From: Escherichia phage JLBYU19
Sequence record: OK272489.1
Reading direction: 5' to 3' (one strand)
Length of the DNA: 49,897 nucleotides
Shown: positions 28,449 through 49,792 of the stretch, piece after piece
How the letters are laid out: every line of letters starts with the position of its first letter
How positions within the stretch are numbered: the stretch's first letter is position 1
Program-made: the position numbers and the translations under genes
Notes under the pieces: model-generated
Databases searched by the model: none
Told to the model about the DNA's origin: nothing
The model's input: only the letters and a program-made list of their open reading frames with translations

Positions 28449-29006
28449 ATGGCTAAAGATTATTCATCTGTTATGGGTCTTTCTTGCCCTGGTTGTTTGG
28501 TTGACTCTACTCGCTACAATATTGATGGAACTGGCGTTTGTGGTTCTGAGTCGATTATTGCTGGTAAGGTTGTTTTCTTCAAAGAGAGAGTAGAAGGTTA
28601 TAGCATATTTGTTGATCATAAAGAGCATGATGCGGTTGTTGCTGGCGTCGCGCTAAGGAGCAACATAACAACGACAGTTAACGAGGAAGACGGGTATTCA
28701 GACTACAAGGAAGGAGACGCCATCAACATTTTGACAAGAGGTGTTGTATGGTGTGTAACTCAAACAATTGAATCTCCTCCTGAACATGGCGATCTTGTTT
28801 ATGTTAACAATGATGGCTTTGTAGCAAAGAGTGACGGGGATGAAATCGTCGATGGCTGGATTTTTACTGGTGACTTCTACAAGTTTGATGAAACAATAAA
28901 CATAGTAGGAGTAAGGATAACGCCGCTTCATCATAGAAAATACCTTCTTACTGGTGCGATAATTGAGGCTGAAAATGGCTACATAGAGGGGAACAGAGAC
29001 GATTAA
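28449..29006 (+). CDS. capsid decoration/cement-like protein (paralog 2)
   Basis: 185 aa; AGGAG RBS; motifs YNIDG, RGVVW, WIFTGD. Confidence 0.45.
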   Translation: MAKDYSSVMGLSCPGCLVDSTRYNIDGTGVCGSESIIAGKVVFFKERVEGYSIFVDHKEHDAVVAGVALRSNITTTVNEEDGYSDYKEGDAINILTRGVVWCVTQTIESPPEHGDLVYVNNDGFVAKSDGDEIVDGWIFTGDFYKFDETINIVGVRITPLHHRKYLLTGAIIEAENGYIEGNRDD

Positions 29007-46775: not shown

Positions 46776-46783
46776 TAACAAAA

Positions 46784-46810
46784 AGCCCCGCATATGCGGG
46801 GCTTTTTTTA
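46784..46810. terminator. bidirectional terminator between ssb and leftward fiber cluster
   Basis: AGCCCCGC-atat-GCGGGGCT hairpin flanked by A5 and T7. Confidence 0.7.
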
Positions 46811-47314
46811 TTCTAACGTGGTTGGTTTGTTTACCAGTGCCGCTACAACCGCTTTTAGCTCGTCAATTTCTTTTCTCATCTCATCGTTTTCCGCTTTCAG
46901 TTTCTTAACGTGGTGAATCAGTGGAACAGTGAGGCGGTCATACATAACGCCTTCCGCCACCATGCCATTACTTGAAGCAATGGCAGGATCTTCTCCTTCT
47001 TGCAGCGGTCGCCAGTGAACGTACTCCGGCGCAATTTCTCCAACCTCTTCCGCGATTAGCCCGTACCATCCCCAATCTTTACGGTCGCTTTCACAAGTTG
47101 ACCGATACCAAACAGGACGCATTTCAAGCATCAGATCCGCATATTCATCAATAACCGATTCTACGCTGCTCTTATAACGAGAAGAGGAAGTGGAGCGTAA
47201 AACTTGCGACACTCCAGCATTTGGATCAAGCCATAAGTTTGCTGATTGAGCGGTTGTGTTAAGATTAAATAAATAAAATGCATCGTTACCAGTTAGGGGG
47301 GTAAAAACTCCCAC
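46808..47314 (-). CDS. tail-fiber C-terminal chaperone-like domain protein (peptidase S74-like)
   Basis: 168 aa from GTG 47314; SSRYKSSVESV ... DWGWYGLIAEEVGEIAPEYV resembles auto-processing chaperone domain of tail fibers. Confidence 0.45.
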   Translation of the reverse strand: MGVFTPLTGNDAFYLFNLNTTAQSANLWLDPNAGVSQVLRSTSSSRYKSSVESVIDEYADLMLEMRPVWYRSTCESDRKDWGWYGLIAEEVGEIAPEYVHWRPLQEGEDPAIASSNGMVAEGVMYDRLTVPLIHHVKKLKAENDEMRKEIDELKAVVAALVNKPTTLE

Positions 47315-47546
47315 TATACCTTCCGCTACCCAACTCGGATGATAGATCAGTTTGTTTTAGATACAGCTTCAACTTATTGTCAACATCAGTAGTTGATGCT
47401 TTTCCTGCGACATCCTGTTTTAGTGTCGAAACATCACTTTTCAGCTTCGTTATATCACCAGGAATAGTAGCAACATCCTGTTTTAGTGTTGAAACGTCAT
47501 TTTTCAGCTTCGTTATATCACTAGGTATAACAGTGACTGTAGCCAT
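47286..47546 (-). CDS. tail fiber-like coiled-coil repeat protein (possible upstream part of split fiber gene)
   Basis: 86 aa; two 21-aa repeats DITKLKxDVSTLKQDVA; overlaps next ORF by 29 nt in another frame. Confidence 0.45.
   Translation of the reverse strand: MATVTVIPSDITKLKNDVSTLKQDVATIPGDITKLKSDVSTLKQDVAGKASTTDVDNKLKLYLKQTDLSSELGSGRYSGSFYPPNW
47411..47526. repeat. tandem direct repeat, 2 x 63 bp
   Basis: CATCCTGTTTTAGTGTCGAAACATCACTTTTCAGCTTCGTTATATCACCAGG repeated with few substitutions 63 bp apart; encodes 21-aa repeat. Confidence 0.6.
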
Positions 47547-47558
47547 TTTCCTAACTCC

Positions 47559-47837
47559 TTAAGCCCATTCTCTAATAGGCTGATCTAACTCAACCACGTA
47601 TCCATTAAAAATTACGGCATCAAACTTATCATCAATGATTCGCACATTAACGAAATAGCCGTCGTTCTTTCGCGCAATCTCCTCGCCATCGTCAGATCGT
47701 GCAATTACTGTATAAGTATTGCCGATTACATCGAGCAGGATTGCATCCTGAATGGATTCGTTATCATCCCAATTAATTTTTCCTAAAAAGGCCGAAAACT
47801 CGGCCTTGTCTGAAAATTTTAATGTTAAATCACGCAT
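47559..47837 (-). CDS. hypothetical protein
   Basis: 92 aa from ATG 47837 (TAATG overlap with fiber gene stop). Confidence 0.4.
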   Translation of the reverse strand: MRDLTLKFSDKAEFSAFLGKINWDDNESIQDAILLDVIGNTYTVIARSDDGEEIARKNDGYFVNVRIIDDKFDAVIFNGYVVELDQPIREWA

Positions 47838-49792
47838 TAAACAATTTCCCCCAATTGATGATCTGTTAGTGCCTTGTGCCATATACGGAAGTTTCTAACG
47901 TGCCCGAAAAGATGACGTTCTCCCGTAGTTGTTTGTCCGCCAATCCTTATAGTAGCCGTCGATCTTATGTATCTCCATTCCGCTTTTGATTCGCTTGATA
48001 TTATGGAATTACTTACACAACAAGTATTGTAATCACTCTTTACTCTCATTCCCATGATCATCTTTTTTAGTTTCGCATTCTCGTAAACCCTTCGGTTTGA
48101 GTTACCTATGTCGCAACAAGGGAATCCGTCATTATCGCCTTCGGCAGACCCGAAAGCAAGAATTATTGCCGCTCCGGTTTGATGGCCGGATGTATCAAAA
48201 ACACGTGGCGCAGCGTTTGGCGTTATACTCCAGTTTTTATGAGCTTCCACAAGCACTGTAAACGGCAAATTGTAAAGGTTGTTTTTTATTGGCAATGTAA
48301 CCATATCGCTTGCCCTTGTTGTCGGACTTTCATTAGTTATAATGAATGATGAAGCGCAAGATCCAACCTCTACTTGAGGAGTTGTTAAATCCATAAAGCT
48401 ATTTTCATCAAAAACTTCTCCTTGTTTATTAACGACCTGTATTACCCCCCTAATGGAAGTTGATTCATCAGTAACTTTGTAAACTATTTCTGCAAAAATC
48501 CATTCCCCGTCTATGGTAGCGTTCTTTAGCACTATGTTTTTTGCGTCAACTCCAGAAGTTGCCACCCCTAAGTTATCGCAATCAATAATAGCAGAAGCAA
48601 CAGAAGATAAAGGATCTCCCTTGTCAAATCTTGCTGCAAATCTTACATTTTTCCCCTTAGCCCTAAAAGATATTGTAACTCCATCACCCTTTACAACTGC
48701 AATCTTATTTGTAGTAAGTCCAGCTATAATAGTGTAAGAGCCTACGCCACCTAAATATTCCCCTGGTTTAAATGTTGCATACTTAAACCCCCTTTCATCA
48801 GTCTTAGTTTCACCTCTTTCTAATCTTGGATTTGGATTCCATGATTCAGGCTTATTTGAATTTACAAAATAGTTTGTTCTCTGCCCTTCAATCAAAAGAC
48901 CATCCTTTTCAAATCTAGGTTCATCAATAGCAGCATCAGTAAGCAACCCAGACTTATTAATGTAAGTAGCGGTTGATGCACGTTTAAACTTAACAATCTT
49001 GTCACCTGGCATCGTGATCTCATCATCACCTATGACAATCTTTTTGTATGACGGCGAGAATCCGGTGATCATATCCAGGGAATCATTAAATGGTATCCAC
49101 ACGTCAGGTAGAGGCTGCAATAAATCTTTGTAAGGTTCTGCGGCCTGTTTTGCGTATTCCTCCGCTTGATCTCGCGCACTTTCAGCGCCTGCCTTTGCGG
49201 TGTTCGCAGCATCACGCGCAGTTTCAGCGCCTTTTCTTGCAGTTTCAGCGCCAGTCTTTGCAGTGTTTGCAGCGTCGCGCGCGGATTCAGCGGCAGCCTT
49301 TGCAGTGTCAGCACCTTTCTTGCTATTCTCTGCATTTGTTGCGCTTGTCTTTGCGTTATTCTCGCTAGTTTTAGCTGCCTTCTGGCTTGCTGCGGCTGCG
49401 TCAGCATTTGTCTTTACGTCTTCCTGGATCTTCTGTAGCTTATCCCAATCAAAATCCTTGATGATCTCAATAAATCCAGCAAACTCCGATTCCTTCCCCT
49501 GGTAATAACGCAACGTTTCCGCTACGTCTTGCGCAAGACCGTCAACCGTTAACGAGTCATGAAGCAAGATCAGGTAATTTGTCTTCTGTACTACCGCGCC
49601 TCCAGTAGTAATTGCGCGAATGCTTGTATCGCTAATCACTTCTGTAATCACAGCAGCTTGCAAAGGTTGAGCAAGAAAGAAAATAGTTGCACCTGGGCGA
49701 ATCAAGGTTAATTGCTCACGCCATTTTGTACCGTAACCAGTTACATAACCTTGCGCGTCCATAGACGCTTGGCCTTGTCTGTAAATCGCCAT
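47837..49792 (-). CDS. tail fiber protein
   Basis: 651 aa from ATG 49792 (AGGAGG RBS 9 nt upstream); Ala-rich repeat region TAKAAAESARDAANTAK. Confidence 0.65.
   Translation of the reverse strand: MAIYRQGQASMDAQGYVTGYGTKWREQLTLIRPGATIFFLAQPLQAAVITEVISDTSIRAITTGGAVVQKTNYLILLHDSLTVDGLAQDVAETLRYYQGKESEFAGFIEIIKDFDWDKLQKIQEDVKTNADAAAASQKAAKTSENNAKTSATNAENSKKGADTAKAAAESARDAANTAKTGAETARKGAETARDAANTAKAGAESARDQAEEYAKQAAEPYKDLLQPLPDVWIPFNDSLDMITGFSPSYKKIVIGDDEITMPGDKIVKFKRASTATYINKSGLLTDAAIDEPRFEKDGLLIEGQRTNYFVNSNKPESWNPNPRLERGETKTDERGFKYATFKPGEYLGGVGSYTIIAGLTTNKIAVVKGDGVTISFRAKGKNVRFAARFDKGDPLSSVASAIIDCDNLGVATSGVDAKNIVLKNATIDGEWIFAEIVYKVTDESTSIRGVIQVVNKQGEVFDENSFMDLTTPQVEVGSCASSFIITNESPTTRASDMVTLPIKNNLYNLPFTVLVEAHKNWSITPNAAPRVFDTSGHQTGAAIILAFGSAEGDNDGFPCCDIGNSNRRVYENAKLKKMIMGMRVKSDYNTCCVSNSIISSESKAEWRYIRSTATIRIGGQTTTGERHLFGHVRNFRIWHKALTDHQLGEIV

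What the first reader, a model, noticed from the sequence alone, without database searches (positions are those of the whole stretch)
46808..47546. Split tail-fiber gene: coiled-coil repeat ORF and S74-like chaperone-domain ORF overlap in different frames at a T5C6 homopolymer
The 86-aa repeat ORF (47286..47546) and the 168-aa ORF with a C-terminal intramolecular-chaperone-like domain (46808..47314) overlap by 29 nt, offset by one frame. The overlap holds a homopolymer run (minus strand TTTTT-CCCCCC, plus 47296-47306). Such chaperone domains normally sit at the C-terminus of the fiber they fold. This may be a frameshifted pseudogene, a sequencing error, or slippage-controlled expression; the downstream ORF also has a possible own start (GTG 47314 with GGAAGG).
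Basis: partly seen in the sequence, partly recalled or inferred. Interest (0 to 1): 0.55.

Follow-up and report, generated by a model that had tools for sequence, protein, structure and literature searches.

The report
Frameshifted small tail-fibre gene
One extra C in a short run of Cs has split a small side-tail-fibre gene of a T1-like coliphage into two overlapping reading frames; this is an ordinary inactivating mutation, though the same one has arisen several times in related phages.

Summary
On the minus strand an 86-aa ORF (47546..47286) and a 168-aa ORF (47314..46808) overlap by 29 nt, one frame apart. The run is T5-A-C6, not a contiguous T5C6. The window is Escherichia phage JLBYU19 (Drexlerviridae, Warwickvirus).

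Most relatives carry C5 and encode a single 224-245-aa protein: an N-terminal coiled coil with 21-aa repeats, a short tip, and a C-terminal S74 intramolecular-chaperone domain. Deleting one C from the window restores this protein at 98% identity. The window therefore holds one gene broken by a +1 C insertion, not two genes and not a programmed frameshift.

- No stimulatory element was found.
- The two-frame layout is the minority state.
- The C run is not conserved in more distant homologues.

A sequencing error is unlikely. The same C6 occurs in four other distinct phages. Three of the five C6 genomes come from Illumina-sequencing laboratories, and each C6 allele's closest neighbour carries C5, so the insertion arose at least three times.

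About 13 of 35 sequenced relatives carry some inactivating lesion in this 0.74-kb gene. The 2-kb fibre gene upstream was intact in all 19 annotated relatives checked, plus the window. Intact alleles are under purifying selection (dN/dS 0.18). The closest precedent is the frameshift in the phage lambda side-tail-fibre gene stf. Interest is low to moderate.

The parts
46808..47546 (-). The whole disrupted gene. It is the orthologue of a single 675-738-nt CDS in relatives, a small coiled-coil tail-fibre protein with a C-terminal S74 intramolecular chaperone.
   Evidence: The alignment with SLUR29, JK16, tunzivis and others differs at the junction only by C6 versus C5. The repaired translation is 98% identical over 100% of its length to the 245-aa cluster representative P0001.
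47286..47546 (-). ORF A, 86 aa. It holds 83 native residues (N-terminal anchor motif plus coiled coil) followed by 3 out-of-frame residues (P-N-W) and a stop.
   Evidence: Deposited as UGO56956.1 of phage JLBYU19.
46808..47314 (-). ORF B, 168 aa as listed from GTG 47314. From the C run onward it is the native reading frame of the tip region plus the S74 domain.
   Evidence: Deposited as UGO56955.1 of phage JLBYU19.
47296..47301 (-). The C6 run (G6 on the plus strand). This is the site of the +1 insertion. Most relatives have C5, reading TAC CCC CTA = Y-P-L.
   Evidence: The span test over 40 GenBank records shows the extra base at this run only in orkinos and AV105; JLBYU10's longer span is a 2-nt insertion elsewhere.
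47303..47307 (-). The adjacent T5 run, separated from the C run by one A (47302). It is unchanged in all relatives and is not involved in the frameshift.
47410..47529 (-). 63-nt tandem repeat, 1.9 copies, 91% matches. It encodes the 21-aa coiled-coil repeat IPxDITKLKxDVSTLKQDVAT. Copy number varies among relatives, giving 224-, 231- and 245-aa forms.
46811..47188 (-). S74 / intramolecular-chaperone auto-processing domain. The Pfam core lies at 47018-47188 and is followed by a C-terminal helix.
   Evidence: Pfam PF13884. AlphaFold2 pLDDT is 81-97 over residues 121-240. The top Foldseek hit is the MyRF ICA domain 7dc3 (probability 1.0), followed by 3gw6 and 3gud.
47171..47188 (-). Codons for S-S-S-R-Y-K. 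This is the predicted auto-cleavage Ser (S120 of the repaired protein) and the Lys five residues later (K125).
   Evidence: In the 43-sequence alignment S120 is nearly invariant and K125 is invariant. Their assignment as the catalytic pair is by analogy and rests on my own knowledge.
46780..46807 (.). GC-rich hairpin flanked by A and T runs. It is a bidirectional intrinsic terminator shared with the convergent ssb gene, and the fibre gene ends immediately before it.
47559..47837 (-). Upstream 92-aa gene (PHROG 1361, function unknown). It always lies between the large fibre gene and this gene.
47837..49792 (-). Lateral tail-fibre gene, 651 aa from ATG 49792. It was intact in every relative whose annotation was examined.

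Best explanation
The window carries a genuine +1 insertion (C5 to C6) in the third gene of the lateral-tail-fibre module of the T1-like phage JLBYU19.

The ancestral gene encodes one 245-aa protein that is itself a miniature trimeric fibre. It has an N-terminal attachment motif and a coiled coil of 21-aa repeats, a short tip region, and a C-terminal S74 intramolecular chaperone. By analogy with other S74 proteins, that chaperone nucleates trimer folding and then cuts itself off at Ser120 with the help of Lys125.

The extra C most likely arose by replication slippage. It makes ribosomes terminate four codons later. The result is an 83-residue coiled-coil stub without tip or chaperone, so the small fibre is most likely lost. 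At most a trace of full-length protein could arise by spontaneous +1 slippage of tRNA-Pro on CCC-C, which would recreate the exact wild-type sequence Y-P-L-T-G.

The lesion is recent, because everything else in the gene is intact. It is also readily reversible, and it is one of many independent inactivations of this particular gene among sequenced relatives. That pattern suggests the small fibre is dispensable or even disadvantageous under isolation and propagation conditions, as described for lambda stf.

Shown here: the single-gene ancestry, the exact lesion, its recurrence, the domain identity, and purifying selection on intact alleles. Inferred: loss of function, the slippage origin, and selection for loss.
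For: 1. Single-gene ancestry. Relatives with C5 have one CDS of 675-738 nt at this position. The alignment shows a single extra C in the window.
2. The repaired protein is 98% identical over its full length to a 245-aa cluster of 73 member sequences. Single-ORF homologues of 227-234 aa have 650 and 2,928 member sequences in E. coli (pro)phages.
3. Not an artefact.
- C6 is also present in orkinos, AV105 and two independent Logan assemblies (ERR9710543, SRR12199279). These are distinct phages, with 7-27 other differences from the window in this gene.
- orkinos and AV105 are documented Illumina genomes. The BYU paper describes Illumina iSeq sequencing for sister JLBYU phages.
- Across the whole window, only two homopolymer indels break genes when compared with the closest genomes.
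4. Recurrence. Within +-150 nt, each C6 allele's nearest neighbour is a C5 allele, for example AV105/EC195 and SRR12199279/SLUR29.
5. Gene-specific loss. There are 12 independent lesions at 10 sites in about 35 genomes: 5 nonsense, one +2, one -13, two -1, and C5 to C6 three times. In the 19 relatives whose annotation was viewed, plus the window, all 11 lesions fall in this 0.74-kb gene. None fall in the adjacent 1.96-kb ltf or the 279-nt gene. If lesions were spread evenly, the probability would be (0.25)^11, about 2e-7.
6. The gene is functional in nature. dN/dS is 0.18 overall and 0.12 in the S74 part.
7. Domain identity comes from Pfam, PHROG 3299 and other tail-fibre families, the fold match to ICA/IMC domains, and the conserved S120/K125 pair.
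8. Precedent. In lambda, stf loss arises mainly by single-nucleotide indels in homonucleotide runs, is selected in plaques, and can revert (PMC2762979).
Against: - No reads are available, so this particular record could still contain a miscalled homopolymer. The window has a second, private extra G in a plus-strand G run (28988) that truncates another structural gene, which is a mild warning sign.
- Loss of function is inferred, not shown. The 168-aa ORF might be translated by re-initiation at GTG 47314, and a leak of full-length protein by +1 slippage is possible.
- The selective explanation is uncertain. Disrupted alleles occur in phages isolated on K-12 and on natural E. coli strains alike. 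The Danish set was enriched in liquid culture without plaque picking.
- The only two uncultured sequences found carry C5, but two is too few to say much.
Confidence: 0.8

Rival explanations
1. The extra C is a sequencing or assembly error in this record. The real phage has C5 and an intact gene.
For: The lesion is a single-base change in a homopolymer. The window also has a private G3-to-G4 frameshift at 28988 that none of 30 relatives share.
Against: The identical C6 is found in four other distinct phages, sequenced and assembled independently. A C5/C6 run lies well inside Illumina accuracy, and the JLBYU, orkinos and AV105 laboratories all used Illumina. The window as a whole shows no excess of homopolymer indels: against genomes 97-99% identical there are seven single-base homopolymer indels, only two of them inside genes.
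Confidence: 0.1
2. The C run is a reversible ON/OFF switch, a contingency or phase-variation tract. It lets phage populations keep both fibre-plus and fibre-minus virions, possibly with a functional leak by +1 ribosomal slippage on CCC-C.
For: C5 to C6 is the only recurrent lesion, with at least 3 independent origins in 5 phages. It is also the longest G/C run in the gene. A +1 slip on CCC-C would restore the exact wild-type sequence, which can be read directly from the sequence. Gallet et al. proposed the same population-level idea for the lambda stf runs (PMC2762979).
Against: - Five or six bases is short for a hypermutable tract.
- The run is broken by synonymous changes in tonn, ityhuna and JLBYU01 (CCA), in BabyEgg (CCT) and in the E. 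coli prophage homologue (CCG).
- Most inactivating lesions in relatives are irreversible nonsense mutations or other indels.
- There is no frameshift-stimulating stop or rare codon.
- The SD-like GGGAG lies 6 nt upstream and is not conserved.
- Downstream RNA shows no structure (z = +1.27) and there is no Rfam hit.
Confidence: 0.07
3. The two ORFs are two real, separately translated genes: a coiled-coil protein and a free-standing chaperone acting in trans.
For: The GenBank records of JLBYU19, orkinos and AV105 annotate two CDSs. A GTG preceded by GGAAGG lies at 47314.
Against: - 30 of about 35 relatives lack the extra C, and 22 of these encode one uninterrupted frame.
- The supposed start and ribosome-binding site are ordinary coding sequence (S-G-R-Y-S-G) in those alleles.
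- The spacing between AAGG and GTG is only 4 nt.
- The first five residues of ORF B come from out-of-frame reading of conserved codons.
- S74 domains act in cis, which I state from my own knowledge of endoNF and T5 pb1.
Confidence: 0.03

Closest known systems
The stf frameshift of laboratory lambda (lambda PaPa versus Ur-lambda), and the experimentally evolved stf loss mutants of Gallet, Shao and Wang 2009 (PMC2762979)
   Same: A single-nucleotide indel in a short homonucleotide run splits a dispensable side-tail-fibre gene into two ORFs. Relatives carry the intact gene. The same sites are hit repeatedly, and the lesion is reversible. The lambda PaPa history itself is from my own knowledge (Hendrix and Duda 1992).
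   Different: Here the broken gene is not the large fibre gene but a small downstream 245-aa fibre protein with its own intramolecular chaperone. The large fibre gene stays intact in every genome examined. The host phage is virulent and T1-like. No phenotype has been measured.
C-terminal intramolecular chaperone (Peptidase S74 / ICA) domains of phage fibres and spikes: K1F endosialidase (3gw6), GA-1 neck appendage (3gud), T5 L-shaped fibre pb1, and the eukaryotic MyRF ICA domain (7dc3)
   Same: The repaired protein has the Pfam S74 signature, the fold, the Ser...Lys (i+5) pair and the C-terminal position. The layout 'N-terminal coiled coil, T5-like tip, C-terminal IMC' has been described for Drexlerviridae and Dhillonvirus fibres (PMC11990801).
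   Different: The protein is very short. The mature part would be about 119 residues, so it is a miniature fibre or fibre tip. In the window the domain is severed from the part it should fold.
Hypermutable poly-G tracts in receptor-binding genes of Campylobacter phages, and bacterial contingency loci (from my own knowledge)
   Same: A homopolymer indel switches a receptor-binding component on or off, and the change recurs at one tract.
   Different: Those tracts are long (about 9 bases or more), conserved and visibly heterogeneous within populations. This one is 5-6 bases and is not conserved in more distant homologues.
Programmed +1 ribosomal frameshifts, such as E. coli prfB CUU-UGA and Listeria phage PSA CCC-UGA (from my own knowledge)
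   Same: The site has a slippery CCC-C where tRNA-Pro can re-pair in the +1 frame.
   Different: The A-site codon is neither a stop nor a hungry codon. No stimulatory SD lies at 3 nt and there is no downstream structure. The in-frame single-ORF state is the common one.

Membership tests
Peptidase S74 / intramolecular chaperone auto-processing domain | Sequence match to Pfam PF13884 at or above the gathering score | tested here: met
   ORF B scores 22.3 bits against a cut-off of 22, and P0001 scores 22.5, so both are borderline. The homologue P0034 scores 35.7 bits. Many homologues carry a precomputed PF13884 hit.
Peptidase S74 / intramolecular chaperone auto-processing domain | The ICA/IMC fold | tested here: met
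   AlphaFold2 pLDDT is 81-97 for residues 121-240. Foldseek against the PDB gives 7dc3 (MyRF ICA) at E = 5e-5, probability 1.0 and 26-27% identity, then 3gw6 and 3gud more weakly.
Peptidase S74 / intramolecular chaperone auto-processing domain | Conserved Ser and Lys (i+5) at the cleavage site | tested here: met
   S120 is nearly invariant and K125 invariant in 43 homologues. The codons lie at 47171-47188. Equating them with the catalytic dyad rests on my own knowledge of endoNF and MyRF.
Peptidase S74 / intramolecular chaperone auto-processing domain | Domain located at the C-terminus of the same polypeptide as the fibre it folds | tested here: not met
   In the window the domain is in a different frame from the coiled-coil part.
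Peptidase S74 / intramolecular chaperone auto-processing domain | Autoproteolytic release after trimerisation | not testable with these tools
   This needs protein expression and mass spectrometry.
Programmed ribosomal frameshift site | The two-frame arrangement is conserved among relatives | tested here: not met
   Only 3 of about 35 GenBank genomes (including the window) and 2 Logan contigs have the C6 two-frame state. All others have C5 or a broken run at this site, and most of them encode a single frame.
Programmed ribosomal frameshift site | Slippery site combined with a stalling A-site codon and a stimulator (SD at about 3 nt, or downstream structure) | tested here: not met
   The site reads CCC CCU AAC, with no stop or rare codon. 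GGGAG lies 6 nt upstream and is absent in SLUR29-type alleles. The downstream 81 nt fold at -4.9 kcal/mol with z = +1.27. No Rfam match reached a gathering score.
Contingency / phase-variable homopolymer tract | Independent recurrent length changes at the same tract | tested here: met
   C6 occurs on at least 3 local haplotypes, and each has an otherwise near-identical C5 twin.
Contingency / phase-variable homopolymer tract | The tract is long and conserved beyond coding needs | tested here: not met
   The run is 5-6 nt. It is replaced by CCA-C, CCT-C or CCG-C in tonn, ityhuna, JLBYU01, BabyEgg and the E. coli prophage homologue.
Contingency / phase-variable homopolymer tract | Length heterogeneity within a clonal population | not testable with these tools
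   No read data are available.
Lambda-PaPa-type side-tail-fibre frameshift | A single-base indel in a homonucleotide run splits a fibre-module gene that is intact in relatives | tested here: met
Lambda-PaPa-type side-tail-fibre frameshift | Loss changes adsorption or plaque phenotype and is selected during propagation | not testable with these tools
   There is indirect support only. Twelve independent lesions concentrate in this gene, with none in the neighbouring fibre genes.

The most novel reading that the evidence does not exclude
In Warwickvirus phages the small coiled-coil/S74 fibre may be a deliberately expendable accessory receptor-binding protein. On this reading, the C5/C6 run works as a low-rate reversible switch at the population level. 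It would keep fibre-plus and fibre-minus virions side by side, a T1-like counterpart of the 'hypermutable stf' idea proposed for lambda. This would explain two things: why C5 to C6 recurs on different haplotypes, and why about a third of sequenced isolates carry this one gene in an inactive state although it is under purifying selection overall.
Probability: 0.15. Interest if true: 0.55.

Novelty: new member of a known kind. Interest (0 to 1): 0.3.

Why it matters
For annotation: UGO56955.1 and UGO56956.1 of JLBYU19, and the matching pairs in orkinos and AV105, are two halves of one gene. They should be flagged as a frameshifted tail-fibre gene, not as two proteins.

For phage biology and therapy: this accessory fibre gene is inactive in roughly a third of sequenced Warwickvirus isolates, so isolates that look near-identical may differ in adsorption or host range. 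Anyone using these phages should check the C run and the rest of this gene.

Conceptually it is another example, outside lambda, of side-fibre components being lost repeatedly through short homopolymer slippage.

Tried and rejected
- Programmed frameshift. I looked for Rfam families, downstream RNA structure and a conserved SD-like stimulator. None was found.
- Systematic homopolymer error. I compared the whole window with JK16 and JLBYU10. There were seven single-base homopolymer indels, only two of them inside genes, so the assembly is not generally error-prone. The second gene-breaking indel (28988) is private to this genome.
- Single origin of C6 spread by descent. Rejected, because the flanking haplotypes differ and each C6 allele has a C5 twin.
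- Fusion to a larger fibre in relatives. I checked tonn, whose match began inside the gene, but it has the same three-gene layout.
- Sequence search of the PDB. It returned only coiled-coil noise. The fold search was needed to identify the chaperone domain.
- Natural versus laboratory origin of C6. Scans of IMG/VR and JGI metagenomes gave only one hit each, both C5, which is too few to decide.
- Literature search for the two Logan run accessions. It found nothing, so I cannot say whether those samples are isolates or metagenomes.
Full report
**1. The observation**

Reading the minus strand and listing ORFs confirms the two ORFs. One is 86 aa, from ATG 47546 to a stop ending at 47286. The other is 168 aa, from GTG 47314 to a stop ending at 46808. 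They overlap by 29 nt, and the second lies in the +1 frame relative to the first.

The 86-aa ORF contains a 63-nt tandem repeat (1.9 copies, 47410-47529) and gives only coiled-coil-type Pfam hits. The 168-aa ORF matches Peptidase_S74 at residues 43-99, just above the gathering score.

One detail needs correcting. The overlap reads TTTTT-A-CCCCCC (T5 47307-47303, A 47302, C6 47301-47296), so the two homopolymers are not contiguous.

**2. What the window is**

Exact look-up shows that both ORFs are deposited proteins of Escherichia phage JLBYU19, whose genome is 49,897 bp, the length of the window. Megablast places it in Drexlerviridae, Tempevirinae, Warwickvirus. It is 97-99% identical to JK16, JLBYU16, tunzivis, orkinos and others.

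The finding lies at the end of a three-gene lateral-tail-fibre module on the minus strand:
- a 651-aa fibre gene (47837-49792);
- a 92-aa gene (47559-47837);
- the split gene, followed by a bidirectional terminator shared with the convergent ssb gene.

**3. One gene, broken by one base**

SLUR29, XY3 and tunus have a single 738-nt CDS at this position. JK16, tunzivis, tonn, swan01 and ExeQuayColi have a 675-nt CDS with one fewer 63-nt repeat. PeterMerian, JLBYU16, WaterSpirit, BabyEgg and an IMG/VR contig have a 696-nt CDS.

In the alignments the window differs at the junction only by C6 instead of C5. Intact alleles read TAC CCC CTA ACT GGT = Y-P-L-T-G.

With one C removed, the window encodes a 245-aa protein that is 98% identical over its full length to the representative of a 73-member cluster. 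No other lesion is present, so the event is recent.

**4. What the intact protein is**

Evidence on the intact protein comes from a structure model, sequence families and gene context.
- Structure. An AlphaFold2 model of the 245-aa homologue P0001 predicts helices at 11-47 and 52-73. Residues 75-99 are of low confidence. Residues 121-240 form a confident domain ending in a long helix.
- Fold. Foldseek against the PDB finds the MyRF ICA domain (7dc3; probability 1.0; 26-27% identity). The K1F endosialidase and GA-1 intramolecular chaperones (3gw6, 3gud) follow more weakly.
- Catalytic pair. In a 43-sequence alignment S120 is nearly invariant and K125 invariant. They are spaced i+5, as in the Ser-Lys dyad of this family (my own knowledge). 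Their codons lie at 47171-47188.
- PHROG families. The whole 245 aa aligns to the last roughly 240 positions of a 1,385-position profile (phrog_3299) and to the C-terminal parts of several tail-fibre families. The first 25 residues match the N-termini of other tail-fibre families.
- Literature. The BASEL follow-up paper describes Drexlerviridae and Dhillonvirus fibres built as 'N-terminal coiled coil, T5-like tip, C-terminal IMC' (PMC11990801).

The protein is therefore best read as a miniature self-chaperoned fibre or fibre tip, rather than only the 'chaperone' of some annotations.

The same three-gene module (about 650 aa, 89 aa, 227 aa) sits next to an integrase in an E. coli prophage. Homologous single ORFs have hundreds to thousands of member sequences.

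**5. Real mutation or artefact?**

A 121-nt query centred on the run was compared with all phage records. All but three of the 40 matching records span 120 nt (117 for a shortened match), as expected for C5. Only orkinos and AV105 span 121 nt; JLBYU10 spans 122 nt because of a 2-nt insertion elsewhere.

Both orkinos and AV105 carry C6 and are annotated with the same 261-nt ORF. Two further independent assemblies of public read sets, ERR9710543 and SRR12199279, also carry C6. These five phages differ from one another at 7-30 other positions in the gene.

The sequencing platforms were:
- orkinos: Illumina NextSeq (PMC7552041);
- AV105: Illumina MiSeq (PMC10844046);
- the JLBYU series: Illumina iSeq, as described by that laboratory for sister phages (PMC10373560).

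A 5-6-nt run is not a problem for that chemistry.

Whole-window comparison with JK16 and JLBYU10 finds seven single-base homopolymer indels, only two of them inside genes. The assembly is therefore not generally error-prone.

The second gene-breaking indel is G3 to G4 at 28988. It truncates a capsid cement protein and removes its Ig-like domain, and it is private to this genome. It is the only reason to keep some doubt about this individual record.

I put the artefact explanation at about 0.1.

**6. Recurrence**

Within +-60 and +-150 nt of the run, each C6 allele's closest sequence is a C5 allele:
- the window and ERR9710543 resemble KMB46, JLBYU01 and ExeQuayColi;
- orkinos resembles tuinn and JLBYU07;
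- AV105 resembles EC195;
- SRR12199279 resembles SLUR29 and JLBYU10.

A single origin would need recombination breakpoints within a few bases on both sides of the run several times over. At least three independent C5-to-C6 events is the simpler reading. C5 is the longest G/C run in the gene.

**7. The gene is a frequent casualty**

Besides C6, relatives carry these lesions:

| Lesion | Phage(s) |
|---|---|
| Nonsense mutation | tuinn, EC195/EC125, Phunderstruck, JLBYU07, JLBYU01 |
| +2 insertion | JLBYU10 |
| 13-nt deletion in the repeat | KMB46 |
| Single-base deletion | ityhuna, brachmannus (an unverified record) |

Among about 35 unique GenBank genomes, about 13 are disrupted by 12 independent events. 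The status of a few genomes (MartyMcPhage, JLBYU38) was inferred from near-identical siblings.

The 1.96-kb fibre gene and the 279-nt gene upstream were full-length in all 19 relatives whose annotation I inspected, and in the window. If the 11 lesions in those genomes were spread evenly over the 3-kb module, the probability of all of them falling in this gene is about 2e-7.

Intact alleles show dN/dS 0.18 overall and 0.12 in the chaperone part. The gene is therefore maintained in nature, but loss-of-function lineages appear again and again.

Disruptions occur in phages isolated on K-12 and on natural strains alike. The Danish phages were only enriched in liquid culture. I therefore cannot say whether the losses arise during isolation or already circulate in the environment. 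The two uncultured sequences found both carry C5.

**8. Mechanism**

The most likely origin is replication slippage adding one C.

Translation of the C6 allele ends four codons after the run. The product has 83 native residues plus P-N-W, which is the anchor and coiled coil without tip or chaperone.

By analogy with endosialidase and T5 pb1 (my own knowledge), a fibre lacking its intramolecular chaperone should not fold, so the small fibre is probably absent from virions. The large fibre gene is untouched.

Two minor routes to some product cannot be excluded:
- Spontaneous +1 re-pairing of tRNA-Pro on CCC-C, which would regenerate the exact wild-type sequence.
- Re-initiation at GTG 47314.

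Neither looks designed. The GGAAGG and GTG are ordinary codons in intact alleles. The SD-like GGGAG lies 6 nt from the slip codon and is missing in SLUR29-type alleles. The A-site codon is CCU. The downstream RNA is unstructured (z = +1.27), and no Rfam family matches.

The run itself is lost through synonymous changes in tonn, ityhuna, JLBYU01 and BabyEgg, and in the prophage homologue, which uses CCG. That argues against an evolved switch.

**9. Comparison with what is known**

The closest case is lambda. The laboratory strain lacks side tail fibres because of a one-base frameshift in stf (my own knowledge). Gallet et al. showed that 15 of 21 independent large-plaque mutants of Stf+ lambda carried frameshifts, nearly all at short homonucleotide runs, with repeated hits at one site and reversion in liquid culture. 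They proposed that this mutability keeps a useful polymorphism (PMC2762979).

The present case has the same logic in a virulent T1-like phage, with one difference: the target is a small downstream self-chaperoned fibre protein, and the main fibre gene is spared.

It is not a member of the programmed-frameshift class, and it does not meet the criteria for a classical contingency tract.

**10. Verdict**

The finding is a frameshifted gene of a known kind, mis-annotated as two genes in three GenBank records.

Two aspects are mildly new: the independent recurrence of the same insertion, and the concentration of inactivating lesions in this one gene. Both deserve a simple experimental follow-up but do not point to a new mechanism.

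Interest is 0.3. Confidence in the best explanation is 0.8.

Noticed in passing
window 28449-29006 (+), indel at 28988: This is a second gene-breaking homopolymer change, G4 where JK16 and 29 other relatives have G3. It truncates a 260-aa capsid cement protein (Pfam Phage_cement plus a C-terminal Big_2 Ig-like domain) to 185 aa and removes the Ig-like domain. It is private to this genome.
   Followed up: partly
window 47410-47529 and relatives (L001-L025): The 63-nt (21-aa) coiled-coil repeat varies in copy number among close relatives, giving proteins of 224, 231 and 245 aa. More distant homologues reach 268 aa. The rod length of this small fibre is therefore polymorphic.
   Followed up: partly
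relatives: L002 tuinn, L009 EC195, L008 JLBYU10, L010 KMB46, L017 Phunderstruck, L018 ityhuna, L019 JLBYU07, L021 JLBYU01, L024 brachmannus: Nine other GenBank relatives carry different inactivating lesions in the orthologous gene: five nonsense mutations, one +2, one -13 and two -1. The upstream 2-kb fibre gene and the 92-aa gene stay intact.
   Followed up: yes
L026 1-3244 (E. coli GCA_001647315.1 contig LRHQ01000038.1): The same three-gene module (659-aa fibre, 89-aa protein, 227-aa coiled-coil/S74 protein) lies at the end of an E. coli prophage next to dinI and an integrase. The module is therefore shared between virulent T1-like phages and temperate phages.
   Followed up: partly
window 47559-47837 (-): A 92-aa protein of unknown function (PHROG 1361, no Pfam hit) is always encoded between the large fibre gene and the S74 gene, in phages and prophages alike. 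It may be an adaptor or assembly factor.
   Followed up: no
window 46780-46807: A perfect GC-rich hairpin flanked by A and T runs serves as a bidirectional terminator between the convergent ssb gene and the fibre module. It attracts many sub-threshold Rfam leader and sRNA hits, all of which are terminator look-alikes.
   Followed up: yes
window 47286-47546 and 46808-47314; GenBank UGO56956.1 and UGO56955.1: The public record of JLBYU19 annotates the two fragments as separate 'tail fiber domain-containing proteins'. orkinos and AV105 are annotated the same way. None is flagged as a frameshifted gene.
   Followed up: yes
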